A DNA stretch of 64,000 bases from a virus (Duplodnaviria; Caudoviricetes): the IMG/VR virus record IMGVR_UViG_3300020411_000980, positions 1-64,000 of that record, one strand, 5' to 3'. Every line of letters begins with the position of its first letter. Within the stretch, counting starts at the first letter, position 1. A program made the position numbers and the translations under genes. The notes under the pieces are model-generated. The model did not search any database and was not told where the DNA came from. It worked only from the letters and a program-made list of their open reading frames with translations. This document shows positions 24,686 to 43,722 of the stretch, in pieces.

Positions 24686-24742
24686 ATTATAATGACTTAT
24701 GAGTCAAATGGGTGTAAATGTGTTCAGTTTATCAACTGGTAC
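24686..24742 (-). promoter_or_regulatory. Early promoter with 22-bp box
   Basis: Box GTACCAGTTGATAAACTGAACA at 24721-24742; TATAAT at 24686-24691. Confidence 0.65.
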
Positions 24743-26512: not shown

Positions 26513-26542
26513 TGTTAAATCCTAATTAATACTGTGCCTGAT

Positions 26543-29241: not shown

Positions 29242-29436
29242 TTATGTCTCAACGTACTTAAGATATAATAAGTCAGTTATTTCCTCTACAGTATGCAGTA
29301 ACTCGTGTAGTTGTTTATCATTTATTCTATGTTCACTATGTGATTGATATGTCTTAGATATAAACATACCAAGTGACTTACGCAAGATGTCTTTGCTCTC
29401 GCTATTTAATATTTGAGATCTGATTCCTAACATCAC
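29242..29436 (-). CDS. Hypothetical protein
   Basis: ORF track. Confidence 0.55.
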   Translation of the reverse strand: MMLGIRSQILNSESKDILRKSLGMFISKTYQSHSEHRINDKQLHELLHTVEEITDLLYLKYVET

Positions 29437-30101
29437 AGTAAAGGGATAAGAGAGAATTGGTCGTCTGGTAAATCACCTCTTGTTTCAATGTCAAATCCTA
29501 GGGTAATTCTGTTACCTTCGTACTCTTCATTAACACATACTTTATGCATTCGTTCCCAACCTGGTCCGAAATAAATGTTACCAACTTCATTATTTATTTC
29601 ATATAAAGGTCCCCGCTGATCTCTAAATTTTGTTATGCTATTCTTTGGATCAATACTTACATATCCGTGGTAATCAAACTTATGATCGTGCCAGTTTAAT
29701 ACTTCATTTGGTTTGTGCATATTAACCCAACATTGCATCCATAATGGTTCATCAGTTCCTAACGTTGTTCTAACTACTGTCCTTATATCTTGTAGCAATA
29801 ACCAAAATAATGGTGATGGTGCAGTTAATGAGAATAGATTATAGAACCGATAACCAGAATAGTTAGTGTCCATATTATCCAACTGCTCCCTATCTAACTT
29901 TAAATCCTCTCTGTCAAATAGTTCTGGCAATGCACCTAGAGTCAACCCCTCTTGTCTTAATGAACTATCAAGACCAGTGAATGTCTCTTTAAATAATCTA
30001 TAACCACGTCCTAATTGACGTAGCATTTCCTCTTGCTCGTGTTCTACAACTGGTGATCTATACAGTACCCAGTCCTCACCCTCCTTAATTTTGTACGTCA
30101 T
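29433..30101 (-). CDS. 2OG-Fe(II) oxygenase-like
   Basis: QCWVN..LNWHDH..HGYVSIDP..HKV..RITLGFD. Confidence 0.8.
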   Translation of the reverse strand: MTYKIKEGEDWVLYRSPVVEHEQEEMLRQLGRGYRLFKETFTGLDSSLRQEGLTLGALPELFDREDLKLDREQLDNMDTNYSGYRFYNLFSLTAPSPLFWLLLQDIRTVVRTTLGTDEPLWMQCWVNMHKPNEVLNWHDHKFDYHGYVSIDPKNSITKFRDQRGPLYEINNEVGNIYFGPGWERMHKVCVNEEYEGNRITLGFDIETRGDLPDDQFSLIPLL

Positions 30102-30756
30102 TTGGATTGTATGCTAAACGTGGATCTTTCGGCATTGCATCTGCCAAATTGATGTTAACAACAGGTCGCCAAGTACCTACTGGTGTTGTTGATGAGTGAA
30201 ATAGATCACCCTTGAATGCCACTGCTCTACCCTTCTTAGGTGATACTCGTGTCATTTCTGTGAATTTGTCCTGTTTGACTAACTCAACATATTGTTGGGG
30301 ATCTTGTGTCCTCTCGTTATAGATGATAGTGTCACCATTTGAATTATCAATATAATATACCACGTTCCAAGAGTTTTGTACATAACTGTCAACGTGTGGT
30401 AACTGAATGATGTTAGAGCACCAAGCAGGTACGTGGTTAACTCTCATCCTAAGCAATGCTTCTGCCTTTAACTTATCTCTGAACTGTAATGCTAGAGGCA
30501 TAAATGCGTTGCATAATGTTGATAACTCACCTTGCTCACACTCAAATAGATAATGGAATGCACAATATCCATTGCGAGGATCACCTAAAAATAGATCACT
30601 AATTGCATTGTCCTTAATCATCCATTTGAGATCAGGGTTCTTAATACAATCTATTAACCAATTCTGATATACTGGTGGGATTATATCATCAAAGACAATA
30701 ACGTCTTTCATATTATTGAATTGTGTCTTAAATGGTGACTGTACTGTAAACTTCAT
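30085..30756 (-). CDS. 2OG-Fe(II) oxygenase
   Basis: PHVD..YYIDNSNGDT..PKKGRAVAF..HSS..RPVVNIN. Confidence 0.85.
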   Translation of the reverse strand: MKFTVQSPFKTQFNNMKDVIVFDDIIPPVYQNWLIDCIKNPDLKWMIKDNAISDLFLGDPRNGYCAFHYLFECEQGELSTLCNAFMPLALQFRDKLKAEALLRMRVNHVPAWCSNIIQLPHVDSYVQNSWNVVYYIDNSNGDTIIYNERTQDPQQYVELVKQDKFTEMTRVSPKKGRAVAFKGDLFHSSTTPVGTWRPVVNINLADAMPKDPRLAYNPNDVQN

Positions 30757-30757
30757 A

Positions 30758-31435
30758 TTATGTGTAGTAAGGTGATGAGTTAATCATTGCTTGTTCTTCT
30801 TTAATGAAGTCTGCTGCTGACTCCCAAGGCATTGATAACATTGGTCGTCCATCATATTTGTTCTTAGCATATTTTCCATTTGCATCAACATAAGATACAA
30901 ATGCTTGTATCTGTAACTCACCTGTGTACTTGGGTCTCCAGTGGAAATCTTTATGTCCTCTGAATATACATATATCTCCTTGATTCATATAAACTTGATG
31001 TGATTTGCCATCCATTTCTAAGTACAAGGGCCAATCAACTTCATCCCTTGTTATACACACATTAGCAACCCATTCACCACTTGTTCTATCTCTATGTCTT
31101 ACTAAATTAGTTCCCTTAACATATACTCTAGCATAACTAAATGTTTGATGTAATTGTATATCTAACACCTGTTCAATCTGTGGTTGTATGTGTTGTCCCA
31201 TTGCTTCAAAACATACTGGTGAATACATTGCAAATGCACCTGGCATTATAGGATCAGATGTGGGTCCAGAATACTGTGTTTCAACCACATTCTTAATCAT
31301 CATATATTCTATCTTTAATTGTTCACAAGTCTCTATTGATAGACCATCACGAATGACATATAATTTGCCATCAGCAATAGTATCAACCTTCAAATCTTGC
31401 TTCATATGACTGGTAGTCATTAATTCCTCTCCCAA
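30758..31435 (-). CDS. 2OG-Fe(II) oxygenase
   Basis: TFSYARVY..LVRHRDR..GDICIFRG..HWR..QAFVSYV. Confidence 0.85.
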   Translation of the reverse strand: MGEELMTTSHMKQDLKVDTIADGKLYVIRDGLSIETCEQLKIEYMMIKNVVETQYSGPTSDPIMPGAFAMYSPVCFEAMGQHIQPQIEQVLDIQLHQTFSYARVYVKGTNLVRHRDRTSGEWVANVCITRDEVDWPLYLEMDGKSHQVYMNQGDICIFRGHKDFHWRPKYTGELQIQAFVSYVDANGKYAKNKYDGRPMLSMPWESAADFIKEEQAMINSSPYYT

Positions 31436-32045
31436 AGAATACTAGAGTTAGTCTTGCATCATCAGATGTAGAACCATAGAAATTCTGTCCTCCGTGATAC
31501 TTTCTTCCATCAAATATTATAGCACGATTGTAACGTGCTTGTACCTTGATAGATTCAATAAAATATGAATTACACTCCTCCTTATACTTATCAAAGTTAG
31601 CAATCTCTTCAGTACCTTGTGCTTCCATTGCCTTATGAAACTCCTCTTCATATCCTTGCATTTCAGCACCAGCAGGTACATCATATATTGTTGTTCCACT
31701 ATCCTCAGTCATATCTGGATTAAGATAGATAACACCACCAATTCCTAAATGGTCGTCATCTGTGTGTATCCATCCACTACCACATTCACCTGTACTAATA
31801 TGAAATGCTGCGTCTGCTATCTCAAATGCACGATAACTTGGTAAGTATTTAATTATCTTTCTACATATAATCTCGTGAAAAACAGGATCTAAATCTTGTA
31901 TGAGTTTAGTTCTCTTACCTGGCCAATACCCTCTGTTTGGATGTTCAGTACAAGGATAATATTCAAGTGATTGTGCATACTTTCGCACTAAACTTGGTGT
32001 CTCAAAGAATCTATCAATAATAGTTGTTGGTACTATTTCTGCCAT
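31383..32045 (-). CDS. 2OG-Fe(II) oxygenase
   Basis: WPGKRT..GWIHTD..GVIYLNP..SGT..YNRAIIFD..HG..RLTLVFF. Confidence 0.85.
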   Translation of the reverse strand: MAEIVPTTIIDRFFETPSLVRKYAQSLEYYPCTEHPNRGYWPGKRTKLIQDLDPVFHEIICRKIIKYLPSYRAFEIADAAFHISTGECGSGWIHTDDDHLGIGGVIYLNPDMTEDSGTTIYDVPAGAEMQGYEEEFHKAMEAQGTEEIANFDKYKEECNSYFIESIKVQARYNRAIIFDGRKYHGGQNFYGSTSDDARLTLVFFGRGINDYQSYEARFEG

Positions 32046-32728
32046 AATCTAAAAGGACATTTAGTCGTGTTAAAAATAAGATTGTGTGTGATACGAGGGA
32101 ATAGATTCTTAGTATCTACTCTCTTTTGTGCATCACGTAATTGCTTACTTGTTGGTGTAGATTTAACCATATCATATTTTTGATTATGGTTATGTTCTTG
32201 ATAAAATGCTATACGATATATAGGATCTCCTCTTCTAATTATAATAGGTTTAGACTCATCTATAAAGTTAATAGCAAATCCAATAGGACGTGACCAATCA
32301 GATAAATTCCACCATCCTTCTACTATCTTAAAATTATTACTAGCACATTGTTTCTGTTCTACCCATACATTCTTAGCACTTGTCCACATTAAGAAGATAG
32401 GTATATGTATTTGAAACGTTTGATCTACTTCCCAATTTGGTGGTGGTTGTATTATTTGATGAAACAGATCACCTAAGTTAGACTCAAGATACTGCTCCTT
32501 TCTATTCATTCTTAATTCAATATGTTTAGGTGCCCGTATCACAAACTCCCGTTTGGTTTTATGCTGCCAAGCAGGACAAGAATGATATATTGTTTTGCTA
32601 GGATCAAATGTATCATAATATCTCTCAGGTTCAAACCCAACACCATCTAAGGTCAATGATGAGTCTAGTGCTCTATCAAGTGACCAGTCTGGTGATTCAT
32701 ATTGTAGATAGTTTATTTGAATGGGCAT
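32033..32728 (-). CDS. Conserved hypothetical beta-rich protein (paralogue of 32713-33402)
   Basis: CPAW..FVIRAP..VEGWWNLSDWSRP..IRRGDPIY..KCPF. Confidence 0.75.
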   Translation of the reverse strand: MPIQINYLQYESPDWSLDRALDSSLTLDGVGFEPERYYDTFDPSKTIYHSCPAWQHKTKREFVIRAPKHIELRMNRKEQYLESNLGDLFHQIIQPPPNWEVDQTFQIHIPIFLMWTSAKNVWVEQKQCASNNFKIVEGWWNLSDWSRPIGFAINFIDESKPIIIRRGDPIYRIAFYQEHNHNQKYDMVKSTPTSKQLRDAQKRVDTKNLFPRITHNLIFNTTKCPFRLWQK

Positions 32729-33402
32729 TGTTTAAACATAAGAGTCTTTGCTAAATTGCTGATGAATCCTTTCACCCTCACTCTCTTATTCATTTGAATC
32801 AATAGATCTTTAGGTGGCATTGCCTTCACAAATTTAAACTCTTGATTGAGATTACTCTCTTCAATGAAATTTATTTTATATAATGGATCACCACGCTTAA
32901 TGATAACAGGTTTAGTATTGTCAACAATATTCAATCCAAATGATATAGGACGTGTCCAAGATGATAGATTGAACCATCCTTGAACTACTGTGAAATTATT
33001 ATTAAGTGAAGTGAGTGGATGATCTTTAACCTCTACCCATATATTTTTATTCTTTGTCCAACATATCAACATAGGCATACACACCTGTAATGTTGTTATT
33101 GGTGCTCTCTTATTTTGTACCTGTACTGTTCTGTTTAACTCTTGAGCATTTAACTGCTTACATATTATTTGAGAATTATCATTGTCAATCTCTAGTGTGA
33201 TATCTTTAGGTGCATATACTATCCACTCTCGTGATGTCTTATGAGTAAATGCAGGACAATCTAAGTATGGTGTCGTCTTAGGCATTGTATCCAAAGTTTT
33301 CCTTGGTTCAATACCAACACCATCTATTGATAGAGGTGAATCTAGTATGTCTGTGACATTCTCAGCACCTTCATATTGATAGTAGTTAATCAGAACAGAC
33401 AT
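32713..33402 (-). CDS. Conserved hypothetical beta-rich protein (paralogue of 32033-32728)
   Basis: CPAF..WIVYAP..VQGWFNLSSWTRP..IKRGDPLY..QCPF. Confidence 0.75.
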   Translation of the reverse strand: MSVLINYYQYEGAENVTDILDSPLSIDGVGIEPRKTLDTMPKTTPYLDCPAFTHKTSREWIVYAPKDITLEIDNDNSQIICKQLNAQELNRTVQVQNKRAPITTLQVCMPMLICWTKNKNIWVEVKDHPLTSLNNNFTVVQGWFNLSSWTRPISFGLNIVDNTKPVIIKRGDPLYKINFIEESNLNQEFKFVKAMPPKDLLIQMNKRVRVKGFISNLAKTLMFKQCPFK

Positions 33403-33904
33403 AGTTAAAATTAATCACAATTCTATTTGTAGCATAGGTGGGTGAACTCGATGCGTGCATCCTTAAACCATCAAAAATAATGAGTTTATTCTTCTCAGGT
33501 TTAACCTTATCTGTGATAGTACCATTTTCATCAAAGAATATGGTCTCACCATCAGAATCATTCACATAATATAGTGCTGTAGTGTGTGGTATATCAAAAT
33601 CCACGTGTGGTCTATTATAACCTGTCTTAGTACTTAAAAGCAACCCTCCCTTAATCCTGAGTAGTTTGTGATCCTTTGGTACAAAGTGTAAGAGCATAGG
33701 ATATACAAAATCTAAACACTCTGATTCTACTCCTTCCATCTCATCAAAGAATAGATGTGCAAATCCTGGTGTACCTCGTTTGTGTGGACCTTCATTAGCA
33801 TATGTTATATCATCTAAAAAATGCCAGTTGAATTTATATGAACTCATCATCTTATGAATTCTGTTTGCATATAATTCTGGAAGCAAATTGTTAATGACCT
33901 TCAT
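33386..33904 (-). CDS. 2OG-Fe(II) oxygenase
   Basis: PHVD..YYVNDSDGET..IIFDG..HAS..RIVINFN. Confidence 0.85.
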   Translation of the reverse strand: MKVINNLLPELYANRIHKMMSSYKFNWHFLDDITYANEGPHKRGTPGFAHLFFDEMEGVESECLDFVYPMLLHFVPKDHKLLRIKGGLLLSTKTGYNRPHVDFDIPHTTALYYVNDSDGETIFFDENGTITDKVKPEKNKLIIFDGLRMHASSSPTYATNRIVINFNYVCSD

Positions 33905-34505
33905 AATTGATTGATAATACTACACGATCTTCATCAGTATTATTTGGTTGTGTTGCGTGCTTCAACCAACCAGGAAATACTAATATGTCATTTGTGTGAA
34001 CTGGTATCTCTCTCCAGAGATTTTGTTCTGGTACCTGTGGAGAACCAAAGCGATGATACTCTAATGGATCTCTAATTAAAAAGTTCCCTGATCCTCGTGG
34101 TGCCTTGAGATAACAAGACAATACCATAGGACAGGGACTGTGTAAATGTTCTGTTGTTATTCCACCACGCTTGTGGATATTGATCCAAGACTCACGTGGT
34201 GTGATGTGACAATTAAAATAACCCCAGTGATCCCAAATTGGAATTAACTGTTTGTGAATAATATAGAAGAACTTTTGTAAACACTCCCAATTATGGGGTG
34301 CATAAGATTCTAGTGATGCTGACGCTGTACTAAATGCGTTGTTGCTCTCTAGTTCTGAATTAGTTCTAACTGTATCTAATAATGATCCTACATCATATTG
34401 TAGTGAACCACCGTGTTCATACTCAAAATCATAGTTGAGTCTCCAAACATAATTTGGAATATACTCAACTGGTTTAGGATCTTCTGGGGTTATTATTAAA
34501 CTCAT
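33891..34505 (-). CDS. 2OG-Fe(II) oxygenase-like (HxH type)
   Basis: SWINIH..EHLH..SCYLKAP..DP..VFPGWLKH..RVVLSIN. Confidence 0.85.
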   Translation of the reverse strand: MSLIITPEDPKPVEYIPNYVWRLNYDFEYEHGGSLQYDVGSLLDTVRTNSELESNNAFSTASASLESYAPHNWECLQKFFYIIHKQLIPIWDHWGYFNCHITPRESWINIHKRGGITTEHLHSPCPMVLSCYLKAPRGSGNFLIRDPLEYHRFGSPQVPEQNLWREIPVHTNDILVFPGWLKHATQPNNTDEDRVVLSINYEGH

Positions 34506-34695
34506 CCACTTTCTCCTTTAACTGCTTGATTCTTTTAGCAGATTCTTCTCTAACCTTTCTGGATAGACGTTTAAGGGTTGGTGGATGAGTTTCATAATTT
34601 ATCCAATTAGACCAGAAATTTGTGTCATTACTCTTCTTTGACATTAGCGTAAGGTAGCATCTCCTTGAATGTACTTGTAGCAAACTTGTAAGCAA
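34474..34695 (-). CDS. Hypothetical protein (likely start MSKKS)
   Basis: ORF track; fills the gap between ho1 and the oxygenase. Confidence 0.45.
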   Translation of the reverse strand: MLTSLLQVHSRRCYLTLMSKKSNDTNFWSNWINYETHPPTLKRLSRKVREESAKRIKQLKEKVDEFNNNPRRS

Positions 34696-35206
34696 CTCTT
34701 ACTTCGTCTGCCATTGAATCGTCTAGTTTAGCACGAATGAGACCCTTTAGTTTCTCTGGGTTAGCGAACTCATACATTGCTGAAGAACCTGGTACTTTCT
34801 TAGCAAGCATTTGTCCACCCATCAGATCACCCATATGTCTGGTATAGACGTGTGCCATCAATCTTTTTTGTCTACTCTCTGAACTAGGATCTTTCTCGAT
34901 CTGTTCAATGTACTTAGTAAACTCTTTAGTTGTTTCTAAAGTTGGTGGGATCTCACCTTCATTACCATAGTCACCCCATAGTTCTTGAAAGTCTTTAACT
35001 AAACCAGGATATCTATTGATATCTTCTAGTCCATTTAATACTTCATTCCTTGATGCTGCATCTTCTAACACATCATACTGTTGGATCTGATTGTATAAGA
35101 ATATAGCATATGATTTTGGATGTAATTTACCTCCAAACATCATACCAACAAAGGGTTGTTCCTCTGCTCTTTTGTGGTGTTCCCACGTTGCTTCTTTAAG
35201 TGACAT
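34628..35206 (-). CDS. ho1: Heme oxygenase
   Basis: LKEATWEHHKRAE proximal His; AHVYTRHMGDLMGGQML distal helix. Confidence 0.92.
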   Translation of the reverse strand: MSLKEATWEHHKRAEEQPFVGMMFGGKLHPKSYAIFLYNQIQQYDVLEDAASRNEVLNGLEDINRYPGLVKDFQELWGDYGNEGEIPPTLETTKEFTKYIEQIEKDPSSESRQKRLMAHVYTRHMGDLMGGQMLAKKVPGSSAMYEFANPEKLKGLIRAKLDDSMADEVRVAYKFATSTFKEMLPYANVKEE

Positions 35207-35208
35207 AA

Positions 35209-35472
35209 TTAATCTTTAAGGTCAGGTAATTTCTTTTCTACCCAGTGCTCCGTGTTATCTATACCAGCAGCAGTGACATATCTCATAATATGCTCATCAA
35301 TCTGATGATAGACTGGGTGTAGATCTAAATCCATATTAATATCGTGTGCTATCTGTGATATCTGATCTGCTGAGAAGCAATGATCAGGATGTAATAGATC
35401 ACAACAAGGGATACGCTTCTCAATTAATTCATTGAGGTTGATACGTATCTCATAATCTCTGTAGACTGGCAT
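35209..35472 (-). CDS. Hypothetical protein
   Basis: 87 aa, CCDLLHPDHC motif. Confidence 0.7.
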   Translation of the reverse strand: MPVYRDYEIRINLNELIEKRIPCCDLLHPDHCFSADQISQIAHDINMDLDLHPVYHQIDEHIMRYVTAAGIDNTEHWVEKKLPDLKD

Positions 35473-35474
35473 AA

Positions 35475-35639
35475 TTAATAACTTGGTTCTAAGTCTGAGT
35501 GTTCAGGTTCATTGACCTCGGAAAATGTTATGTCATCCCAATAGGAATGATATAACCTACCCCATATAACTTTAAATTCGTCATCATCAAGGTCTTTGAA
35601 TAGACAGCGATCTTTAAGATATATGTGGTATGTTGACAT
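35475..35639 (-). CDS. Small hypothetical protein (54 aa)
   Basis: Manual translation MSTYHIYLKDRCLFKDLDDDEFKVIW...; GGAGG RBS. Confidence 0.65.
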   Translation of the reverse strand: MSTYHIYLKDRCLFKDLDDDEFKVIWGRLYHSYWDDITFSEVNEPEHSDLEPSY

Positions 35640-35944
35640 TAGTCCTCCGTGCGTTGTCCTATGGTTTCTATATTATCATCCTCCTCGGTAGCGAGTTCGA
35701 ATGATGGCATATTAACTTCTCCGTCGTCTCCCATTATATCACGCTTTACCATAAACAGTGCATCGATAGCACCTTCAAGTCTTGATCTCTGACTATATGC
35801 TTCAGATCTCTTCTGAAAATCAACAGTAGTCACACCATAAGGATTTAGTTTCTTGTTACTAAATTCCTCATCTAGTTCTTCTATCAATTTAGTTTGTTCT
35901 TCCTTTTGTAAGTGGAAGTTTTGTATCAGTTCATCAATAGTCAT
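35639..35944 (-). CDS. Hypothetical coiled-coil protein
   Basis: ORF track; RLEGAIDAL. Confidence 0.7.
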   Translation of the reverse strand: MTIDELIQNFHLQKEEQTKLIEELDEEFSNKKLNPYGVTTVDFQKRSEAYSQRSRLEGAIDALFMVKRDIMGDDGEVNMPSFELATEEDDNIETIGQRTED

Positions 35945-36828: not shown

Positions 36829-38407
36829 TATATTCTTCTCTTGTCACCTTACTGACTCCTATTGCGTGCTCGTTCTCTTCACTACCCATTAGATATCTTG
36901 TACCTAATTGTAATCCGTGACCTGCAGCAATATAGTTCATACCGTGCATATTAGCATTCAATGGTTCAGCGTGATCTAATATAGATCCCATCCTTTCAAA
37001 GTTATCATTAACCTTGATATTACCACTGTGCATAGTTTCAATATCCATATAATCATTACGTTGTGTACACCACTTCCAGTATGGATTGTCAGTTCTCATT
37101 GATAATGCATAGTGCATAGCAACAAACTTAGCAAATCCAATTACTTCACGTTGTGCACAATAATTATACCATTGTCTCTCTATATTTGTGACGTATCCCT
37201 TTCTTCTATTGAGTATGTCAACCAGTCTAAGGATACTCTCGTGTGTAGTTAATAGTCCTGTTGATTCTAATGGTTCTACAAATCCATATGATAGACCAAT
37301 AGCAAGACAATTAAGTTCCCACGCTTTCTGCCTATAACCGTGCTTTATATCAATAGAGGATACCTCATACTCATCAGGTTGTAGACCAAACTTAAGTTCA
37401 ATCCAGTTTCGGAACTCTTGCTCTGTCTCGTGTTCCATTGCAAAACGTGATGACCAAGCATAACCAACACCAATACGATCCCATAATGGAATAGTCCACA
37501 TCCAACCATTCTCTGCTGCTGTGCAGTCAGTCACATTATGCATCATTTCCTTACGTTGTTCTATATCAAGATAAGGTAAACGTGCAAAGAATGCTTTATC
37601 ATTTGCAAGTATATCTTTGAATGATTCGAATGATACATTCATCAATCCTTCAATGAGTGCACCTTTAAATCCAGTACAGTCAATGAATAGATCTCCTGTT
37701 ACTCCTACTTGCTTTTTATCTGCGTCTAGTCTTACACCCAACTGATTAATCTGTCTGTTAGATGCAGCAGGAGATCCACCACGTTTAACATCCTTAATCA
37801 TTCCACGTACTTCACCAAGTACGTGTGTAAACCTGTTCTTCTCTGCCCAAGGATAACATACTCTATCTCTTAGGAACTCACCAAACTTCTCAGCATCTAA
37901 ATGATATGCTGTATCTGTCTTGAAGTTATAGTTATCCCAGTCCATATATCCTTCTGGAGTCTGAGCACTATTCCACTGTTTATTATTTGCTACAAGTGTA
38001 TCATTCTCAGGATTATAATACTGAGAGAATGACTTGTTGTCTGGATTATATTCTTCTGGATGTCTCTTCTGTAAGTCAAACCAATCTTCAATACCATTAG
38101 CAGTGTTATCTAACTTATACTTACCAAATGGATATTGAAAGGTCGTCCCTTTCTCTCTAAAATCTGTGAACTGAATACTATTCTTATAGGTTGCATTACA
38201 ATACTCCATCCAGTCTTTATCTTCAAGACCAAGAGCATCAAGATACTTATTGAAATGACCTAAAGTAGATTCACCAACCCCAATAGGTTTATGCTTTGTA
38301 CTCTCCACGAGTACAACATTAACCCAAGGGCATAGTTTCAACAAGGCAGCACAGGTCATCCAACCAGATGATCCACCACCCACAATTACAACGTTATTGA
38401 CCTGCAT
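36725..38407 (-). CDS. prnA: Flavin-dependent (tryptophan-halogenase family) halogenase
   Basis: GGGSSGW, GVGEST, ATYKNSI (catalytic Lys), DCTGF, GWMWTIP, FVEPLEST. Confidence 0.92.
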   Translation of the reverse strand: MQVNNVVIVGGGSSGWMTCAALLKLCPWVNVVLVESTKHKPIGVGESTLGHFNKYLDALGLEDKDWMEYCNATYKNSIQFTDFREKGTTFQYPFGKYKLDNTANGIEDWFDLQKRHPEEYNPDNKSFSQYYNPENDTLVANNKQWNSAQTPEGYMDWDNYNFKTDTAYHLDAEKFGEFLRDRVCYPWAEKNRFTHVLGEVRGMIKDVKRGGSPAASNRQINQLGVRLDADKKQVGVTGDLFIDCTGFKGALIEGLMNVSFESFKDILANDKAFFARLPYLDIEQRKEMMHNVTDCTAAENGWMWTIPLWDRIGVGYAWSSRFAMEHETEQEFRNWIELKFGLQPDEYEVSSIDIKHGYRQKAWELNCLAIGLSYGFVEPLESTGLLTTHESILRLVDILNRRKGYVTNIERQWYNYCAQREVIGFAKFVAMHYALSMRTDNPYWKWCTQRNDYMDIETMHSGNIKVNDNFERMGSILDHAEPLNANMHGMNYIAAGHGLQLGTRYLMGSEENEHAIGVSKVTREEYIANVKKFVESDDCPTHYDYLLENIYGEDNVEYLP

Positions 38408-38410
38408 AAT

Positions 38411-39910
38411 CTAATTGATACCGTCAGTATTATATAGGACATCATTATAATAGTCAATCGGTCTTGGCATAAAAGCAGCGATCTCCTTTCCTTCAGTGAT
38501 TCTCTTCTCTACAGCAGCATCTAAGATAGGTAGGAAGTCACCACCAAACTCTCGATCATAATGTGCTTCCATATCCATAACTTCCTTCCTACCAATAATA
38601 GTATAACCTAGACCTGCCATCACAAACTGCATACCAATAAACAAATCATTTAATGTTGTTGGTACATCACGACAGTCAATATTATTTAATGTGTGGAATG
38701 GTACTGAAGTTGCAGCATCCCAATATGGTGTGTCGTCTTTGTATGCTGCTGTGAAATGATGTACGACAAAATCTCTGAATGTCATAAACTTGACGTGACA
38801 CGCTGCATTGAACCAGTCACGTTGTAATCCTGATATAGTATTTCTCTTAGGATCAGCAAACTGTATGAAATTAAATAAGAACTCGTGTACTGAGAACAGA
38901 CCACCTGATTCTAATGGTTCAATGAAACCAGCAGATAGTCCGATTGCTATTGTATTACCCACCCATATCTTTTCTCTCATACCTGTTGGCCAACGTAGGT
39001 ATCTAAAATCTTCATCAGGTGCATCAGGGCAACCTAAATGTGCCTTAAACTCCTTTAGTGCAAAGGCTTTATCCTGAAACTTTGAACTGAAATTATAACC
39101 TGTCCCAATACGAGACCAAGTTGGTACAGTCCAGACCCAACCACTTGACAGTGCAGTGACACGTGTGTAGCTCGTAAGTTCCCGTTCTTTATCAACATAC
39201 TCCCGTCTTGTGCACCACGTACTGTCATTGAGTAACACGTCTCTCCAGTCGTCCCAGGGCACTCCCAGGCGGTTCATCAAAATTGCTCTGAATCCTGTGC
39301 AGTCTATGAATAGGTCAGCAGTTACCTCTCTACCATCATCAAGAGTTAGTTTTGTTATATTATCTCCCTCCGTGTCAATCGTATCTACTGTCTCTCTAAT
39401 ATAATTTAAACCACGTGGGATACAAAATCTATCCTTTAGATACTTAGCAAACTTAGTAGCATCAATATGATAACCAACTAACGTGTCTATGTGTGGTGTA
39501 TATAATTTTCCCTGTTCAGATACTACAGCAGCATTAGAGAATACATTCTGAAATGTTGTATTAGATGGTTGTCTATGGTACTTCCAAATATAATAGTCTA
39601 AGGGTGGAATATTAGTATCATAAGAACCAAAAGGGTACTGCCACGGTTGGTCAGTACCCCAATTTTCAAATCGAATGCTGTTCTTATATGTTGCGTCACA
39701 CGCTGGCATCCACTCTTTATCTTCGAGTTCCAGATACCTAATGAATGTATTAAAATGCTGTGTTGTAGATTCCCCTACCCCTATAGTTCCGACTAGAGGA
39801 GACTCTATCAACGTAATATTTTTAGTGCCCTCAAAATGTTTAAGTAGCACTGATGCTGTCATCCACCCTGCACTGCCACCTCCGACAATACAGATGTTAT
39901 TAAATTTCAT
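38411..39910 (-). CDS. prnA: Flavin-dependent (tryptophan-halogenase family) halogenase
   Basis: GGGSAGW, GVGEST, ATYKNSI, DCTGF, GWVWTVP, FIEPLES. Confidence 0.92.
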   Translation of the reverse strand: MKFNNICIVGGGSAGWMTASVLLKHFEGTKNITLIESPLVGTIGVGESTTQHFNTFIRYLELEDKEWMPACDATYKNSIRFENWGTDQPWQYPFGSYDTNIPPLDYYIWKYHRQPSNTTFQNVFSNAAVVSEQGKLYTPHIDTLVGYHIDATKFAKYLKDRFCIPRGLNYIRETVDTIDTEGDNITKLTLDDGREVTADLFIDCTGFRAILMNRLGVPWDDWRDVLLNDSTWCTRREYVDKERELTSYTRVTALSSGWVWTVPTWSRIGTGYNFSSKFQDKAFALKEFKAHLGCPDAPDEDFRYLRWPTGMREKIWVGNTIAIGLSAGFIEPLESGGLFSVHEFLFNFIQFADPKRNTISGLQRDWFNAACHVKFMTFRDFVVHHFTAAYKDDTPYWDAATSVPFHTLNNIDCRDVPTTLNDLFIGMQFVMAGLGYTIIGRKEVMDMEAHYDREFGGDFLPILDAAVEKRITEGKEIAAFMPRPIDYYNDVLYNTDGIN

Positions 39911-39916
39911 AATGAG

Positions 39917-40441
39917 TTAGGTAGGTGGTTCTACGTATGCTCCACCCCAATTTGAATAGCGTTCCCAACAAGGATTCTCTTGTGTTGAGATCTTACAAGG
40001 TCTATCAACAGACGGTTCAACAGCATCTGACATAAACTCAGAGATTTCCTCTTCTGTCATAGCTGGATCCATTGGTTCCTCTACGTCAGATGGTCTTTGA
40101 GTATTCTCTTTAACTGTCTTAACGTGATTATACCACAAAGCATCAGCCGCTGCTAGATCTTTACCTGCTGCGATGTCTTTGTATAGCATATCTAATTGCT
40201 GACCAATTTCACCATATGCAACTCTACGAGTTGTAGCAGGATCAGCGTATGTATCTACACGCTTAACCCATATCATATCATTGGCAGATGGTGACCATTC
40301 TAGTGTCCAAGTGTTTGTTATGTCATCAGGTGCATTGACCCACATCTGAGAACAACCACGACCTAAGAATAGTGTGTATTCTTCACCAGGATCTACTACG
40401 TCTGCCACGTATCCATTGAAATCCATTAATGCTTTCTTCAT
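39917..40441 (-). CDS. Tail-fibre-associated / assembly chaperone-like protein
   Basis: RRVAYGEIGQQLDMLYKDI..WYNHVKTVK motif typical of fibre-adjacent genes; directly follows a Gly-rich fibre gene. Confidence 0.55.
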   Translation of the reverse strand: MKKALMDFNGYVADVVDPGEEYTLFLGRGCSQMWVNAPDDITNTWTLEWSPSANDMIWVKRVDTYADPATTRRVAYGEIGQQLDMLYKDIAAGKDLAAADALWYNHVKTVKENTQRPSDVEEPMDPAMTEEEISEFMSDAVEPSVDRPCKISTQENPCWERYSNWGGAYVEPPT

Positions 40442-40450
40442 TGGTGACCC

Positions 40451-41251
40451 CTATTTGTAGTTAATAACAGTAATAACACCATACTTACCGTTTGAACCAC
40501 GGAAAGAACCAAAGTGTCCACCAGATCCACCACTACCATAAGCAGAGTGATCTTGGTGATTATGTGAGAAGTTACCTCCATTTGGCCAACCAGCAGCAAC
40601 TGATCCTCCAAAGTGAGATGGTCCTCCAGTTCCACCACCGTGAGCAGCGTGGGACTGTCCACCACCACCCCAGATGTTCAAGTCTCCACCAGAACCATTA
40701 CGTCCTAGTCCACCTGAGTGAGAGTTGTTACGTGCAGCACCGTGTCCACCACCAGCAGATAGATATGGTCCAAAGGATGATGATCCTCCGTCTCCACCAC
40801 GGTTGAAGTACCAAGTACCTCCACCTCCTCCACCAACTGAAATACCAACTGAGGAAATGTTGGCAACAGACATTACTCGTTCTGAATATCCACCAGCACC
40901 ACCAGACTCACCGTGTCCAGCACCTCCTCCTCCACCGCCATTACAGCGTACGTGGATGTATTTAACACCTGATGGACGGTTCCAAGTTCCCCCTCCTGTC
41001 CATACTTGCATATTATAAATGTTTTCGGAACTTACTGATGTCCAAGACATAGAAGAACCATTGTTAGTTAGAAACTTTCCAGACTGTCCAGAGACACTAG
41101 GTACGATCTGACCAGACGAACCTGACATAGTTCCGTTCACGGTCAAATTACTGCAGGTTAAAGTTCCGTTCGCAGTAATATTACCAGACGCTAGGGTAAA
41201 TCCACCGATGCCTGACAGGTCTCTAATAGATGCAACTTTAAGTGTACTCAT
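40451..41251 (-). CDS. Glycine-rich tail fibre / adhesin-like protein
   Basis: SGKFLTNNGSSMSW; WNRPSGVKYIHVRCNGGGGGG..GGAGGY..VGGGG..SSFG pattern; late promoter upstream. Confidence 0.75.
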   Translation of the reverse strand: MSTLKVASIRDLSGIGGFTLASGNITANGTLTCSNLTVNGTMSGSSGQIVPSVSGQSGKFLTNNGSSMSWTSVSSENIYNMQVWTGGGTWNRPSGVKYIHVRCNGGGGGGAGHGESGGAGGYSERVMSVANISSVGISVGGGGGGTWYFNRGGDGGSSSFGPYLSAGGGHGAARNNSHSGGLGRNGSGGDLNIWGGGGQSHAAHGGGTGGPSHFGGSVAAGWPNGGNFSHNHQDHSAYGSGGSGGHFGSFRGSNGKYGVITVINYK

Positions 41252-41277
41252 TTTACCTGTTTAGTTTTCCTCAAATC

Positions 41278-41285
41278 TATTTATA
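41278..41285 (-). promoter_or_regulatory. T4 late promoter TATAAATA
   Basis: Exact consensus 27 nt upstream of the Gly-rich gene. Confidence 0.7.
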
Positions 41286-41288
41286 TGT

Positions 41289-41852
41289 TTATGGAGTTGG
41301 TGGAGTTGGTCTAACCTCACCTGGTTCCAGGTATGGTTGATCTCTCTCCCACTGCTCATCATCAGGGTAATAACCTGGATGATAGTGTACTTTATTGGCA
41401 GGATAATCTCTTCTAGAAGACTCATCCTCCCAAGATTTTACTTGAAATGTCTCTTTAAACTTTAAAGTGACACCATCTTCCTTAACATAAGCCTGTACTA
41501 TGTAGTCAGTATCAGGATCAAGTCTAGGGAATGATAAATTCTCGAACCAAGGACAATCTGTACAGATGATTTGATCATACTTCATCTCATACAATGGTGT
41601 TTCATTTCCTTTGCTGATACACACATACATCTCTAGGTCTTTGAAGTGAAGTTTATATTCTCCATTCTTTCTGACACTCAACTTAACGTTAGGGTCATAA
41701 GATTTTAGTGTCTGAAATCCTGAAGATTCTACAGTCTTCTTAGCAACATCAAATACTACTGTTGCTTCATTATACTCAACTGCCTGAACTTCTTCATCAG
41801 CTGGTCTTGGATCATTAGGATCCACTATTCTTGGGTTAGTTACTCTGTCCAT
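41289..41852 (-). CDS. Hypothetical protein in the fibre module
   Basis: 187 aa between two Gly-rich genes. Confidence 0.7.
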   Translation of the reverse strand: MDRVTNPRIVDPNDPRPADEEVQAVEYNEATVVFDVAKKTVESSGFQTLKSYDPNVKLSVRKNGEYKLHFKDLEMYVCISKGNETPLYEMKYDQIICTDCPWFENLSFPRLDPDTDYIVQAYVKEDGVTLKFKETFQVKSWEDESSRRDYPANKVHYHPGYYPDDEQWERDQPYLEPGEVRPTPPTP

Positions 41853-41854
41853 AA

Positions 41855-42829
41855 TTACAATTCATAACATACGGTAATGTTTCCTGTTCCACCATTATAT
41901 TGTCCTGCACCGTTTCTTGCCCAATGTCCCCAGTTTCCACCGTTTCCATAGTTACCAGACCAGGTTTGGGTTTCGTCAGCATAGTTAGAACCTGACCAAT
42001 TGTTTCCTCCACCTCCTCCTGCTGCTCCATTACAGTCACAGCCTGGGTTTCCTCCACAATTACCTGCGTTCCAACCGCCTCCACCACCGCCTCCTCCAGA
42101 GGCATCGTTACCTGGTCTTCCACACTCATCTCCATTAGTATCTCCATTAGCACCGTGATTTCCACCCTGTGCACCACACTGTCCGTTTTCTCCTCTCTGG
42201 TTACCTGCTCCTCCTCGACCAGCACCACTACATCCTTCACGTCCACCGCCCCCGCCACCACCTGCTGCAACCAACAGGATATTGCCCTGAGACAAGTTAA
42301 CACCCCAAGGTGAGAAGAACATACTTGCTGCTCCACCACCTCCACCTCCAGCAGAGCATCCTCTACAAGAAGCGTGAGTACCACGACCACCAGATCCATA
42401 ACCAGATCCGTTATTACCATTACCACCGCCACCCCAACATCCGAAGCAACCTCCTCCGTTAGAGCCACCACCTCCGACATATGCTCGGAAACGAGCTGCA
42501 TCTACCCATCCATCTTGTAAGATGAGTCGTGCATAGGCAGCACCACCTGATCCACCGTGTGCACCACCTTGTCCACCATTTCCACCAGCAGCACCCCAAG
42601 CCCAAACCCAAATATAGTTACCTTTACCTGTTCTTATATAAAGACTATTATCTCCACTACCCTGAAACCTGTGACATCTTAGTTGTCTACCATCCTGTGA
42701 TGTATTAAATACTGATCCATTATCGTCAGCAGTCACCTTCTCCAATCCACCACCACCTCCAGGTCCTCTGGATGATAGTGAATGACTAAAGTTATTTAAT
42801 AACCCTGAATAACCAATTTGTGTTGACAT
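41855..42829 (-). CDS. Glycine-rich, Cys/Trp-rich adhesin-like protein
   Basis: AWGAAGG..GGSGG..LLVAAGGGGGG; many polyglycine runs; CxxC pairs. Confidence 0.75.
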   Translation of the reverse strand: MSTQIGYSGLLNNFSHSLSSRGPGGGGGLEKVTADDNGSVFNTSQDGRQLRCHRFQGSGDNSLYIRTGKGNYIWVWAWGAAGGNGGQGGAHGGSGGAAYARLILQDGWVDAARFRAYVGGGGSNGGGCFGCWGGGGNGNNGSGYGSGGRGTHASCRGCSAGGGGGGAASMFFSPWGVNLSQGNILLVAAGGGGGGGREGCSGAGRGGAGNQRGENGQCGAQGGNHGANGDTNGDECGRPGNDASGGGGGGGGWNAGNCGGNPGCDCNGAAGGGGGNNWSGSNYADETQTWSGNYGNGGNWGHWARNGAGQYNGGTGNITVCYEL

Positions 42830-42831
42830 AA

Positions 42832-43686
42832 TTATGCGTAATTAGATCCAGACCCAAATACAGTGAATGCGTGTTGAGAAGTATTAGGTGTATGTACCAG
42901 AGCAAATGATACAACTATCCACTTCTCATCGTGTGATGGTGCGTTACCACCTATCCATTGTATGTTAGTACTCTGTCCATTGATGTTTATGGATGAGGGA
43001 ATTCCTGACCCTCCTGTTTCATATATAGCAACCGTAATACCATATCCGTGTGCACCATCAGTAGGAACATTGTTTAAAGATAATGTCCAGTTACCTCCAC
43101 CGTTCTTATTTACCCAAATAGAGTTACCATTATTATAGTCGTGAGTTATACTTCCACTTGTTGTATAGAAGTAGATACGCTCTGAAGTTTCTTCAAAGTG
43201 TAACCTACCAGTTGAAGTAATATGTTGTGATTCAATATCAACAAAGTGAGCATATGACAGGTCGTCGTCTCCAAGTAATGTCCAAGATGCGTTGTTTTCA
43301 ATAGTAACTGTCCATCCTGAAGCAATTTCTACAGGACCAGCAGTAAAACCGTTTGTAAATTCTACACCACCGTTCGCTATAGGACCAATGGTTATATTTT
43401 CTTGTATTGTTGTACCGTTCGTTCTAATTATACTTCCTTCACCAAGAGCAGGACCACCTCCACCAACGTCTGTCCAACCTGGGTTACCTTGGTTAGCATC
43501 TTGTTTGTATATCTGTGCCATATCTTCGGTGCTGTTATACACCAAAGTACCAAAAGCAGGAGTACCTAAAGCAGTAACTTGTGCTTGGTTCAGATTTGGT
43601 AAATTAAGTTGTTCGGTAATGCTCCACGCTTCAACTAAACCTCTAGTTGTTGCTTGAATATTATTACCATTAATCTGGGTAGACAT
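42832..43686 (-). CDS. Tail fibre-like structural protein
   Basis: PAFGTLVYNST; NGFTAGPVEIASGWTVTIENNASWT motif. Confidence 0.65.
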   Translation of the reverse strand: MSTQINGNNIQATTRGLVEAWSITEQLNLPNLNQAQVTALGTPAFGTLVYNSTEDMAQIYKQDANQGNPGWTDVGGGGPALGEGSIIRTNGTTIQENITIGPIANGGVEFTNGFTAGPVEIASGWTVTIENNASWTLLGDDDLSYAHFVDIESQHITSTGRLHFEETSERIYFYTTSGSITHDYNNGNSIWVNKNGGGNWTLSLNNVPTDGAHGYGITVAIYETGGSGIPSSININGQSTNIQWIGGNAPSHDEKWIVVSFALVHTPNTSQHAFTVFGSGSNYA

Positions 43687-43715: not shown

Positions 43716-43722
43716 TATTTAG
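43716..43722 (-). promoter_or_regulatory. Late promoter variant CTAAATA
   Basis: 30 nt upstream of the 42832-43686 start. Confidence 0.5.

What the first reader, a model, noticed from the sequence alone, without database searches (positions are those of the whole stretch)
29433..43686. Halogenase/oxygenase tailoring array transcribed directly behind Gly-rich fibre genes
Seen: downstream of a late promoter (41278), a nearly gap-free run comprises a Gly-rich fibre, a chaperone-like gene, two intact flavin-dependent halogenases, three related beta-rich proteins, heme oxygenase and six divergent 2OG-Fe(II) oxygenases. Many genes overlap, and no flavin reductase or small-molecule scaffold synthase is visible. 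The neighbouring fibres are rich in Trp, His, Asn and Cys. Known: the cyanophage halogenase VirX1 is active in vitro but, to my knowledge, its natural substrate is unknown, and 2OG oxygenases can hydroxylate proteins. Inference: a RiPP-like post-translational system that halogenates and hydroxylates receptor-binding fibres to tune host range or stability.
Basis: partly seen in the sequence, partly recalled or inferred. Interest (0 to 1): 0.8.

Follow-up and report, generated by a model that had tools for sequence, protein, structure and literature searches.

The report
Fibre-linked halogenase and oxygenase gene module
A marine cyanophage fragment carries, directly behind its glycine-rich tail-fibre gene and a small helper gene, two VirX1-type halogenases and a row of iron oxygenases already known from phage Syn9; the steady pairing and the late promoters make the fibre-assembly proteins a testable but unproven candidate for what these enzymes act on.

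Summary
On the minus strand of 29433-43686 lie 20 tightly packed genes. They include two Gly-rich proteins, a small gp40-like protein, two intact flavin halogenases (one a VirX1 orthologue, E 2.9e-138), three dUTPase-fold-like proteins, a heme oxygenase and six 2OG-oxygenase-like proteins. A T4-type late promoter motif sits at 41278.

The enzyme array is not new. It is the Syn9 gp41-gp54 neighbourhood described by Iyer et al. 2010 (PMC2938197), who proposed organohalogen metabolite synthesis.

Two things go beyond that paper:
- Linkage: in 56 of 56 dereplicated viral lineages, the gp40-like gene has a halogenase just downstream. In 54 of 54 evaluable lineages it has the Gly-rich gene just upstream.
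- Late-promoter motifs lie about 30 nt before the Gly-rich gene, the gp40-like gene (23 of 56) and the first halogenase (11 of 56). None lies before the oxygenases.

Against an obligatory fibre substrate:
- 7 of 73 evaluable halogenase-selected loci lack both partner genes.
- Related halogenases sit in replication or AMG regions.
- Heme oxygenase is a known metabolic gene.

No modification has been shown. This scan has reached the same idea on other DNA at least eight times.

The parts
43719..47294 (-). Large tail fibre protein (1191 aa), upstream neighbour of the module
   Evidence: phrog_529 tail fiber, E 0; conserved upstream in related loci
42832..43686 (-). Syn9 gp35-like protein (284 aa), function unknown
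   Evidence: phrog_29506 3e-76; conserved position in loci
41855..42829 (-). Gly-rich protein (324 aa, 32.6% Gly, 3.7% Cys), no family
   Evidence: present in only part of the related loci
41289..41852 (-). 187-aa protein, no family
41278..41285 (-). T4-type late promoter motif TATAAATA, ending 26 nt before the ATG of the Gly-rich gene
   Evidence: Conserved at the same place in 12 of 12 lineages of the window's subgroup. Strand bias is 80 to 3 over 1.2 Mb of related loci
40451..41251 (-). Gly/His-rich fibre-tip-like protein (266 aa; Syn9 gp38-like)
   Evidence: Pfam Gly_rich_2 5.6e-5 (under the cut-off) and phrog_863 6.7e-51. Invariant W90, H113, E115, Y122, Y148, H178, H201 and H230-x-H232 in 28 sequences
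39917..40441 (-). gp40-like small protein (174 aa): N-terminal beta domain, helices and a low-confidence C-terminal tail with invariant W159, R161 and W165. Probable fibre-assembly helper
   Evidence: phrog_1787; alignment A1; model with pLDDT 79.8; Syn9 Gp40 in BFVD at 2.5e-18. Remote homologues sit right after tail-fibre genes in S-T4 and HTVC109P
38411..39910 (-). Flavin-dependent halogenase A (499 aa; Syn9 gp41-like)
   Evidence: PF04820 8e-101; VirX1 1.5e-87, catalytic motifs present
36725..38407 (-). Flavin-dependent halogenase B (560 aa), VirX1 orthologue
   Evidence: PF04820 5.1e-86; 6qgm 2.9e-138 over the full length, motifs present
35941..36744 (-). gp43-like protein (267 aa from the ATG at 36744), dUTPase-like fold with an invariant Cys
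   Evidence: phrog_7084 3e-43; C58 invariant; model with pLDDT 86.2; Foldseek hits to dUTPases at E 2.3e-4, TMt 0.65; described for Syn9 by Iyer et al. 2010
35209..35944 (-). Three small ORFs (101, 54 and 87 aa). The 101-aa one follows the gp43-like gene in most related loci
34628..35206 (-). Heme oxygenase (192 aa), a variable insert in the row
   Evidence: PF01126 2.2e-19. Found by tblastn in only part of the 80 loci: 12 starts were examined
33891..34505 (-). 2OG-Fe(II) oxygenase, Oxy_5 type (204 aa)
   Evidence: PF13759 1.6e-13; conserved after the 101-aa ORF in most loci
33386..33904 (-). 2OG-Fe(II) oxygenase, Oxy_3 type (172 aa)
   Evidence: PF13640 8.7e-7; HVD...H motif
32033..33402 (-). 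Two paralogous proteins (229 and 231 aa) sharing the Cys-Pro...AP-x-D motif of the gp43-like protein
   Evidence: phrog_17480; 41% identical to each other; hhalign probability 60%, E 8.6e-5 against the gp43-like profile
29433..32045 (-). Four further oxygenase-like genes: DUF6445 (31383-32045), 'ferrochelatase'-labelled phrog_2954 (30758-31435), 30085-30756 and 29433-30101
   Evidence: Pfam DUF6445 1.4e-12 and weak Oxy_3/Oxy_5 hits; phrog_274, phrog_81 and phrog_2696; HxD...H or HxH...H motifs read by eye

Best explanation
This is a new member of the Syn9-type halogenase/dioxygenase gene neighbourhood. It is physically and transcriptionally joined to the end of the late tail-fibre operon of a T4-like cyanophage.

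Shown:
- A conserved gene order: Gly/His-rich fibre-tip-like protein (1-3 copies), gp40-like small protein, one to three VirX1-type halogenases, dUTPase-fold protein, 101-aa protein, then 2OG oxygenases.
- T4-type late promoter motifs stand before the first three kinds of gene.

Inferred:
- The halogenases, and at least the oxygenases that always follow them, are made late, together with fibre assembly.
- They act on a protein made in the same operon. The candidates are the Gly/His-rich fibre protein (invariant Trp, Tyr and His) or the flexible Trp-bearing tail of the gp40-like helper.
- They use host-supplied reduced flavin, O2, halide, Fe and 2-oxoglutarate.
- Heme oxygenase and some oxygenases are probably unrelated inserts in a gene-swap-prone region.
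For: Linkage in cultured phages: tblastn finds the Gly-rich protein in 20 of 50,697 phage records and the gp40-like protein in 20 records. By my comparison of the two listings these are the same 20 records. The gp43-like protein is in 14 records, each directly after the halogenase (gene orders).

Linkage in uncultured viral contigs:
- 80 of 80 IMG/VR loci picked by the gp40-like gene have the Gly-rich gene just upstream. 79 of 80 have a halogenase as the next matched gene downstream; in L081 an oxygenase-like match lies between.
- With remote homologues added there are 150 loci in 56 lineages at 90% identity. A halogenase lies within 1.5 kb downstream in 56 of 56. The Gly-rich gene lies within 400 nt upstream in 54 of 54 evaluable.
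- Selecting by halogenase instead, 65 of 73 evaluable loci have the gp40-like gene within 1.5 kb upstream.

Block behaviour: an S-RIM44 isolate without the halogenases lacks the whole block.

Late expression:
- TATAAATA occurs 80 times on the coding strand against 3 on the other strand in 1.2 Mb.
- NATAAATA lies within 70 nt upstream of 41 of 102 Gly-rich genes, 36 of 80 gp40-like genes and 26 of 75 HalB-type genes. It lies before 0 of 38 HalA-type genes, 0 of 64 gp43-like genes and 0 of all oxygenase genes examined.
- Per lineage the figures are 23 of 56 for the gp40-like gene and 11 of 56 for the first halogenase.
- The motif also stands before Syn9 gp38 and gp40.

Other points:
- The 20 genes include no scaffold synthase.
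- A review states that VirX1 has a large, open active site that takes bulky substrates, and it lists no natural product for it (PMC8407142, passages).
- The gp40-like family is essentially phage-only: 1 locus in 185,579 genomes, and that locus is a phage-like contig with the same gene order.
- Remote homologues of the gp40-like protein follow tail-fibre genes in 2 of 2 halogenase-free phages examined.
Against: - No modified residue has been observed anywhere.
- Every member of this halogenase family whose substrate I could read about acts on small molecules in vitro.
- 7 of 73 evaluable halogenase-selected loci lack both partner genes, and in one more the helper gene lies 1598 nt away. I looked at 2 of these 7. 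One sits among replication genes. The other lies between a 2OG oxygenase and a luciferase-like monooxygenase.
- Cultured phages S-B64, S-MbCM6 and Syn1 carry related halogenases (29-38% identity) next to sbcCD or psbA/hli/talC.
- Iyer et al. 2010 report bacterial halogenase plus dioxygenase neighbourhoods with TonB-type receptors and no fibre genes.
- Heme oxygenase sits in the row.
- S-T4, which has no halogenase gene at all, keeps a Pro-x-Trp motif near the C-terminus of its gp40-like homologue. That Trp therefore need not be a halogenation site.
- T4-like cyanophage genomes are broadly collinear, the loci are related, and several contigs were sampled more than once. Part of the linkage is shared descent.
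- The oxygenases have no late motif of their own, and a helicase gene follows on the same strand without a terminator.
Confidence: 0.4

Rival explanations
1. Secondary-metabolite or free-substrate chemistry (the published reading of Iyer et al. 2010). The halogenases and oxygenases successively halogenate and hydroxylate a free amino acid, indole-like compound or short peptide of the infected cell. This would yield an organohalogen compound. The position behind the fibre genes would be incidental.
For: - Iyer et al. propose this for the Syn9 cluster and show related halogenase/dioxygenase neighbourhoods in bacteria (passages read).
- VirX1 halogenates many small aromatic compounds in vitro (review passages).
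- The closest solved relatives after VirX1 are free-tryptophan halogenases.
- Related halogenases in other phages lie in AMG or replication regions.
- The row contains heme oxygenase, a small-molecule enzyme.
Against: - No synthase, ligase, carrier or exporter is among the 20 genes.
- The VirX1-type clade keeps the Gly-rich and gp40-like genes in front of it in 56 of 56 lineages.
- Late promoter motifs stand directly before the halogenase or its upstream helper gene in many lineages. I recall that cyanophage metabolic genes are mostly early or middle genes; the Syn9 transcriptome paper was not held.
Confidence: 0.3
2. No common task. The stretch between the fibre operon and the replication genes is a gene-swap-prone region where unrelated accessory genes pile up. 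These would include halogenases, assorted oxygenases and heme oxygenase. The constant gene order reflects descent and block transfer together with the fibre module, not a shared substrate.
For: - The content downstream of the gp43-like gene varies between lineages: heme oxygenase, the small ORFs and the number and order of oxygenases all change.
- The whole block is present or absent together with a different fibre gene in S-RIM44 isolates.
- The row ends at a DNA helicase and a methyltransferase.
- Sullivan et al. 2010 list many scattered 2OG oxygenases per cyanophage genome (table passages).
Against: - The core order is kept down to about 31-46% protein identity, while the surroundings change. 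That core is Gly-rich gene, gp40-like gene, halogenase, gp43-like gene, 101-aa ORF and Oxy_5 oxygenase.
- Genes overlap or are 1-9 nt apart.
- Iyer et al. argue that distinct dioxygenase families were assembled by selection for joint function.
Confidence: 0.2
3. Nucleotide or DNA modification. The dUTPase-fold proteins would bind a nucleotide, which the halogenases and oxygenases would then modify, for example to protect phage DNA.
For: - Three dUTPase-fold-like proteins lie in the row.
- 2OG oxygenases include base-modifying enzymes (Iyer et al. introduction).
- VirX1 accepts aza-heterocycles.
- A DNA methyltransferase lies nearby at 24724-25638.
Against: - The fold match is modest: E 2.3e-4, 10-14% identity, and it covers only the core.
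- None of the oxygenases hit AlkB- or TET-type Pfam families.
- Late timing fits DNA synthesis poorly.
Confidence: 0.05

Closest known systems
Syn9 gp38-gp54 region, the 'tandem dioxygenase plus tryptophan halogenase' neighbourhood of cyanophages (Iyer, Abhiman, de Souza, Aravind 2010, PMC2938197)
   Same: Same gene order and families: fibre, gp35-like, Gly-rich, gp40, two halogenases, dUTPase-fold protein with a conserved Cys, then a row of distinct 2OG oxygenases. Protein identities to the window are 41-60%.
   Different: - The window has one copy of the 266-aa Gly-rich gene; Syn9 has two genes labelled tail fiber assembly.
- The window adds a 324-aa Gly/Cys-rich protein, a heme oxygenase and two extra dUTPase-fold-like paralogues.
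- No JmjC/MINA-like member was detected by Pfam.
- The passages I read from the paper do not link the enzymes to fibre genes or to late promoters.
VirX1, flavin-dependent halogenase of cyanophage Syn10 (PDB 6qgm)
   Same: The 560-aa protein aligns over its full length at E 2.9e-138. The flavin-binding motif, the catalytic Lys, WxWxIP and EPLES are all kept.
   Different: About 43.5% identity by tblastn to the Syn10 and Syn9 genes. Activity and halide preference are untested here. A second halogenase stands in front of it, as in Syn9.
Peptide-acting flavin halogenases of RiPP pathways (for example MibH; I recall that 5uao is its structure)
   Same: Same enzyme superfamily: 5uao is hit at 5.2e-34 and 1.4e-40. 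A possible protein-borne Trp substrate is encoded next door.
   Different: No leader/core precursor, protease or exporter is present. The candidate substrates are a 174-aa folded protein with a tail and a 266-aa fibre-like protein. The relation to 5uao is far weaker than to VirX1.
Bacterial operons in which 2OG hydroxylases are co-encoded with collagen-like Gly-rich or phage tail-collar proteins (proposed substrates in Iyer et al. 2010)
   Same: Gly-rich or fibre-type proteins are encoded beside 2OG oxygenases and proposed as their substrates.
   Different: Those operons carry sulfotransferases and are bacterial. The proposal was not made for the cyanophage cluster.
Tail-fibre assembly helpers encoded directly after fibre genes (Tfa-type; T4 gp38 type, recalled)
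   Same: The gp40-like gene is small and follows the fibre-tip gene by 9 nt. Remote homologues follow fibre genes in S-T4 and HTVC109P.
   Different: Fold searches give no clear match to solved helpers. The best is the cyanophage Pam3 fiber N-terminus at Z 3.9; the Mu chaperone scores probability 0.11.

Membership tests
Flavin-dependent (tryptophan-type) halogenase, PF04820 | Profile match above the curated cut-off over the catalytic domain | tested here: met
   338.6 and 289.8 bits against a cut-off of 21
Flavin-dependent (tryptophan-type) halogenase, PF04820 | GxGxxG flavin-binding motif, WxWxIP motif and catalytic Lys (motif names taken from review PMC8407142) | tested here: met
   HalB has GGGSSGW, ATYKNSI and GWMWTIP. 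HalA has GGGSAGW, ATYKNSI and GWVWTVP (Ile replaced by Val). Read in the alignments
Flavin-dependent (tryptophan-type) halogenase, PF04820 | Halogenating activity with reduced flavin | not testable with these tools
   No PF01613 flavin reductase in the 102-kb record, which is 55% complete
Syn9-type dioxygenase/halogenase neighbourhood (Iyer et al. 2010) | Tandem array of several distinct, not recently duplicated 2OG dioxygenases | tested here: met
   Six oxygenase-like genes. Pairwise BLASTP finds only one clear pair, 25% identity at E 2e-12
Syn9-type dioxygenase/halogenase neighbourhood (Iyer et al. 2010) | One or two tryptophan-type halogenases within the array | tested here: met
Syn9-type dioxygenase/halogenase neighbourhood (Iyer et al. 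2010) | dUTPase-fold protein with a conserved cysteine | tested here: met
   Foldseek hits to dUTPases at E 2.3e-4; C58 invariant in 33 sequences
Syn9-type dioxygenase/halogenase neighbourhood (Iyer et al. 2010) | JmjC/MINA-like dioxygenase (Syn9 gp49 type) | tested here: inconclusive
   No JmjC or cupin_4 Pfam hit among the genes scanned. Remote members could be missed
T4-type late transcription unit | TATAAATA at the -10 position a short distance before the gene (consensus recalled) | tested here: met
   41278-41285, conserved and strand-specific
T4-type late transcription unit | Late timing of the RNA, with its start at the motif | not testable with these tools
   Only contigs of RNA libraries were available, and they cannot show starts or levels. 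The Syn9 transcriptome paper was not held
   None among the 20 genes by Pfam or PHROG. The candidate substrates are full-size proteins
   Needs mass spectrometry
Tail-fibre assembly helper (for the gp40-like protein) | Small gene directly downstream of a fibre or adhesin gene, across unrelated phages | tested here: met
   54 of 54 lineages; S-T4 and HTVC109P homologues
Tail-fibre assembly helper (for the gp40-like protein) | Fold or sequence relation to a characterised helper | tested here: inconclusive
   Best Z is 3.9, and Foldseek E is 0.55 or worse against PDB. BFVD lists 'tail fiber assembly protein' only at E 0.03 or worse
Heme oxygenase, PF01126 | Profile match above the cut-off | tested here: met
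   70.5 bits against a cut-off of 23, profile positions 6-176 of 204

The most novel reading that the evidence does not exclude
VirX1-type viral halogenases may be protein halogenases. Late in infection they would brominate or iodinate a tryptophan (or Tyr/His) of the co-encoded Gly/His-rich fibre-tip protein or of the gp40-like helper's tail. The neighbouring oxygenases would hydroxylate the same protein. This would give the first halogenated virion component and would name the natural substrate of VirX1.
Probability: 0.25. Interest if true: 0.85.

Novelty: new member of a known kind. Interest (0 to 1): 0.55.

Why it matters
The only review I could read (2021, PMC8407142) lists no natural product for VirX1. 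The cyanophage papers I read only guess at antibiotic protection or altered host metabolites. This locus and its relatives narrow the question to two concrete proteins, which can be tested in cultured phages (Syn9, Syn10, P-TIM40) by mass spectrometry and in vitro assays.

If the enzymes do decorate fibre parts, it would be a new kind of virion chemistry in very abundant ocean viruses, with possible effects on host range or particle stability. If they do not, the late timing still constrains what the small-molecule product could be for.

Tried and rejected
- Complex prediction of halogenase B (alignment A3) with the gp40-like protein (A1) gave no answer: score 0.00 against a mark of 0.32, and the controls were not run. 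It says nothing either way.
- Fold searches for the gp40-like model found no clear fold: Foldseek PDB best E 0.55, VIA-align best Z 3.9.
- The Gly-rich protein has no sequence relative among solved structures; the best E is 0.037, to an unrelated glycoprotein. Its likeness to the Gly-rich gp38 adhesins of T2/S16-type phages is therefore only recalled.
- Sigma-70-like promoters occur at chance level (71 against 70.2). Only one strong terminator-like hairpin was found, at 26069-26038.
- The Syn9/P-TIM40 transcriptome paper (Doron et al. 2016) and the VirX1 paper (Gkotsi et al. 2019) are not held. Published expression classes for gp38-gp54 could not be checked, and their supplements may bear on the late-gene claim.
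- Contigs from RNA libraries (4 runs, 4 studies) lie on parts of both halogenases, the gp43-like gene, heme oxygenase, the Gly-rich gene and the fibres. One 154-nt contig bridges the junction between the Gly-rich and gp40-like genes. Contigs cannot show transcription, strand, starts or levels, and DNA carry-over is not excluded.
- I looked for gp40-like homologues without a halogenase, to see whether the Trp tail goes with the enzyme. All 69 evaluable loci of the second scan had a halogenase. Of the two remote homologues in halogenase-free phages, one (S-T4) keeps Pro-x-Trp and one (HTVC109P) does not. The test is indecisive and leans against a halogenase-specific tail.
A1 was used instead.
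- Literature searches for a published link between halogenases and tail fibres found none in the held library.

Full report
**What is there.** The window is part of a 102-kb uncultivated viral record, about 55% complete. Its genes match T4-like cyanomyoviruses.

Between 51 kb and 26 kb every gene is on the minus strand. In reading order:
- A virion protein and two tail-fibre proteins: 49236-50561, 47336-49231 and 43719-47294 (phrog_692, 693 and 529).
- A gp35-like protein.
- A 324-aa Gly/Cys-rich protein.
- A 187-aa protein.
- A 266-aa Gly/His-rich protein (phrog_863; Pfam Gly_rich_2 just under its cut-off).
- A 174-aa gp40-like protein.
- Two halogenases.
- A gp43-like protein.
- Three small ORFs.
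- Heme oxygenase.
- Eight further genes: six oxygenase-like and two paralogues of unknown function.

The row then passes through small ORFs into a DNA helicase (26543-27775) and a DNA methyltransferase (24724-25638).

- Both halogenases are full length and keep the flavin-binding motif, the catalytic Lys, WxWx(I/V)P and EPLES. The second is the orthologue of VirX1 (6qgm, E 2.9e-138).
- Of the six oxygenases, two pass Pfam cut-offs and one is DUF6445. Three rest on PHROG hits plus metal-binding motifs that I read by eye.
- Some PHROG labels in this row ('DNA endonuclease V', 'minor coat protein', 'ferrochelatase') sit on proteins that look like 2OG oxygenases. Iyer et al. likewise count Syn9 gp52 and gp54 as 2OG dioxygenases.
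- The gp43-like protein folds with confidence (pLDDT 86.2) into a dUTPase-like core (Foldseek E 2.3e-4, TMt 0.65). It has an invariant Cys.
- The two paralogues at 32033-33402 are 41% identical to each other. They share only a short Cys-Pro...AP-x-D motif with the gp43-like protein.
- Nine of 19 junctions overlap and eight are 1-9 nt apart.

**The promoter.** TATAAATA at 41278-41285 ends 26 nt before the ATG of the 266-aa gene.
- The window has three copies against 6.27 expected. All are on the coding strand and in gaps 26-31 nt before a start codon.
- In 1.2 Mb of related loci the motif occurs 80 times on the coding strand and 3 times on the other.
- It is kept at this place in all 12 lineages of the window's subgroup.
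- That this 8-mer is the T4-type late promoter is recalled knowledge, not something shown here.

**It is a known array.** A note from an earlier agent led me to Iyer, Abhiman, de Souza and Aravind 2010 (PMC2938197). I read passages of that paper.
- They describe, for Syn9, ten tandem dioxygenases, two tryptophan halogenases and a novel dUTPase-fold protein with a conserved cysteine.
- They call this unprecedented and suggest it makes organohalogen metabolites.
- Annotated records of Syn9, P-RSM6, P-TIM40, S-RIM44 and S-WAM1 show the same order as the window.

The locus is therefore a new member of a known kind.

**What goes beyond the paper: linkage.**
- In 50,697 phage records the 266-aa protein and the gp40-like protein each hit 20 records. 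By my comparison of the listings these are the same 20. All carry a VirX1-type halogenase right behind them.
- The gp43-like protein hits 14 records, each directly after the halogenase.
- Of 80 IMG/VR loci selected by the gp40-like gene, all 80 have the Gly-rich gene (1-3 copies) just upstream. In 79 a halogenase (1-3 copies) is the next matched gene downstream; in L081 an oxygenase-like match intervenes.
- A profile search found 225 representatives of the gp40-like family, many only 110-155 aa long.
- A second scan with those remote members gave 70 loci under new ids, several on contigs already sampled. 69 of the 70 have a halogenase close by; the remaining one has only 205 nt of sequence downstream.
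- Together there are 150 loci in 56 lineages at 90% identity. A halogenase lies within 1.5 kb downstream in 56 of 56. The Gly-rich gene lies within 400 nt upstream in 54 of 54 evaluable.
- The family is nearly absent from 185,579 cellular genomes. The single hit is a phage-like contig with the same order.
- An S-RIM44 isolate without these halogenases lacks the whole block and has a different fibre gene.

**What goes beyond the paper: timing signals.**
- NATAAATA lies within 70 nt upstream of 41 of 102 Gly-rich genes, 36 of 80 gp40-like genes and 26 of 75 HalB-type genes.
- It lies before 0 of 38 HalA-type genes, 0 of 64 gp43-like genes and none of the oxygenase genes (loci not dereplicated).
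- Per lineage the figures are 23 of 56 for the gp40-like gene and 11 of 56 for the first halogenase.
- Chance for a 70-nt stretch is roughly 1%, judged from 10 coding-strand copies of the 7-mer in 64 kb.
- In Syn9 the motif stands 29-33 nt before gp38 and 34 nt before gp40.

The halogenase and its helper therefore carry late-type signals of their own in many lineages. This argues that late expression is selected for, not merely read-through.

**Results against a fibre substrate.**
- Selecting loci by the halogenase, 65 of 73 evaluable have the gp40-like gene within 1.5 kb upstream, and one more has it at 1598 nt. Seven have neither it nor the Gly-rich gene.
- I examined two of those seven. One lies among replication genes. 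The other lies between a 2OG oxygenase and a luciferase-like monooxygenase.
- Cultured S-B64 has its halogenase next to sbcCD. S-MbCM6 and Syn1 have theirs near psbA, hli and talC.
- Heme oxygenase is in the row only in some lineages.
- The oxygenases have no late motif, and no terminator separates them from the helicase gene.
- The related loci share ancestry, so the counts are not independent events.

**The gp40-like protein.**
- Its model (pLDDT 79.8) has a five-stranded N-terminal domain, helices, and a low-confidence tail holding invariant W159, R161 and W165.
- All 56 lineages have a Trp in the last 35 residues.
- Remote homologues of its helical part are encoded right after tail-fibre genes in Synechococcus phage S-T4 and, two genes after the fibre, in Pelagibacter phage HTVC109P. 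Neither phage has any PF04820 gene.
- This supports a fibre-helper role. S-T4's homologue still has Pro-x-Trp near its end and HTVC109P's does not. The Trp is therefore not tied to a halogenase.
- This weakens an earlier agent's note that the tail occurs only where a halogenase follows.

**The Gly-rich protein.** It is well conserved (59% identity to Syn9 gp38). Invariant W90, Y122, Y148 and several His residues, including an H-x-H, are kept in 28 sequences.

**Weighing.**
- Favouring a protein made in the same operon: the context, the late signals, the lack of any scaffold gene, and VirX1's open active site.
- Favouring a free substrate or no common task: the enzyme family's known chemistry, the exceptions, the bacterial neighbourhoods of Iyer et al. 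and the variable tail of the array.
- I put fibre-linked protein tailoring at 0.4, small-molecule chemistry at 0.3, no common task at 0.2 and nucleotide modification at 0.05.
- Nothing here shows a modification. The RiPP label does not fit.

**Earlier work of this scan.** A word search of the scan's notes returned eight earlier findings on other genomes with the same fibre/halogenase idea. None was on this genome. In the held literature I found no paper that links halogenases to tail fibres.

Noticed in passing
window 41116-41272: A 160-nt contig from an RNA library (run X3) matches without differences. It stops at 41272, six bases downstream of the TATAAATA motif, which is where a T4-type late transcript would be expected to start (spacing recalled). 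Contigs cannot show RNA ends, so this is only a hint.
   Followed up: no
window 26093-26551: A 139-aa ORF with no PHROG family (not scanned against Pfam) has its own TATAAATA at 26544-26551. It is followed by the only strong terminator-like hairpin of the region (26069-26038, 13 pairs plus a T run). It looks like a separate late gene set between the helicase and methyltransferase genes.
   Followed up: partly
window 50855-51295: A CpeT-like antenna protein gene (phrog_488, 3.1e-29) lies just upstream of the late promoter at 50590 and the virion and fibre genes.
   Followed up: no
window 40451-41251: The Gly-rich protein family keeps an invariant H-x-H (H230, H232) and five further invariant His or Glu residues. 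This is reminiscent (recalled) of metal-binding His-x-His sites in T4 fibre proteins.
   Followed up: partly
window 29433-34505 and Syn9, P-RSM6, P-TIM40 records: The PHROG and RefSeq labels 'DNA endonuclease V', 'minor coat protein' and 'ferrochelatase' sit on proteins that carry 2OG-oxygenase motifs or Pfam hits. These look like propagated mis-annotations.
   Followed up: partly
window 3-9503 and 12759-16520: There are very large ORFs on the same strand: 3167 aa, open at the window's start, and 1253 aa. They were not examined.
   Followed up: no
L214 (IMG/VR contig of 280 kb), 4409-7602: A VirX1-like halogenase (42% identity) lies between a 2OG Oxy_5 oxygenase and a luciferase-like flavin monooxygenase. 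There is no Gly-rich or gp40-like gene nearby, so this is a different enzyme context.
   Followed up: partly
L046 and L083: Some lineages carry more than two tandem halogenase matches behind the gp40-like gene: three in L046 and two HalB-type in L083. Others carry up to three tandem Gly-rich genes in front of it.
   Followed up: no
PMC12801897, section 'Virion-associated proteins': In cyanomyovirus S-SCSM2R a 2OG-Fe(II) oxygenase (ORF269) was detected by mass spectrometry in purified virions. The authors think it may be carried along or simply abundant. I did not check whether it is related to the oxygenases here.
   Followed up: no
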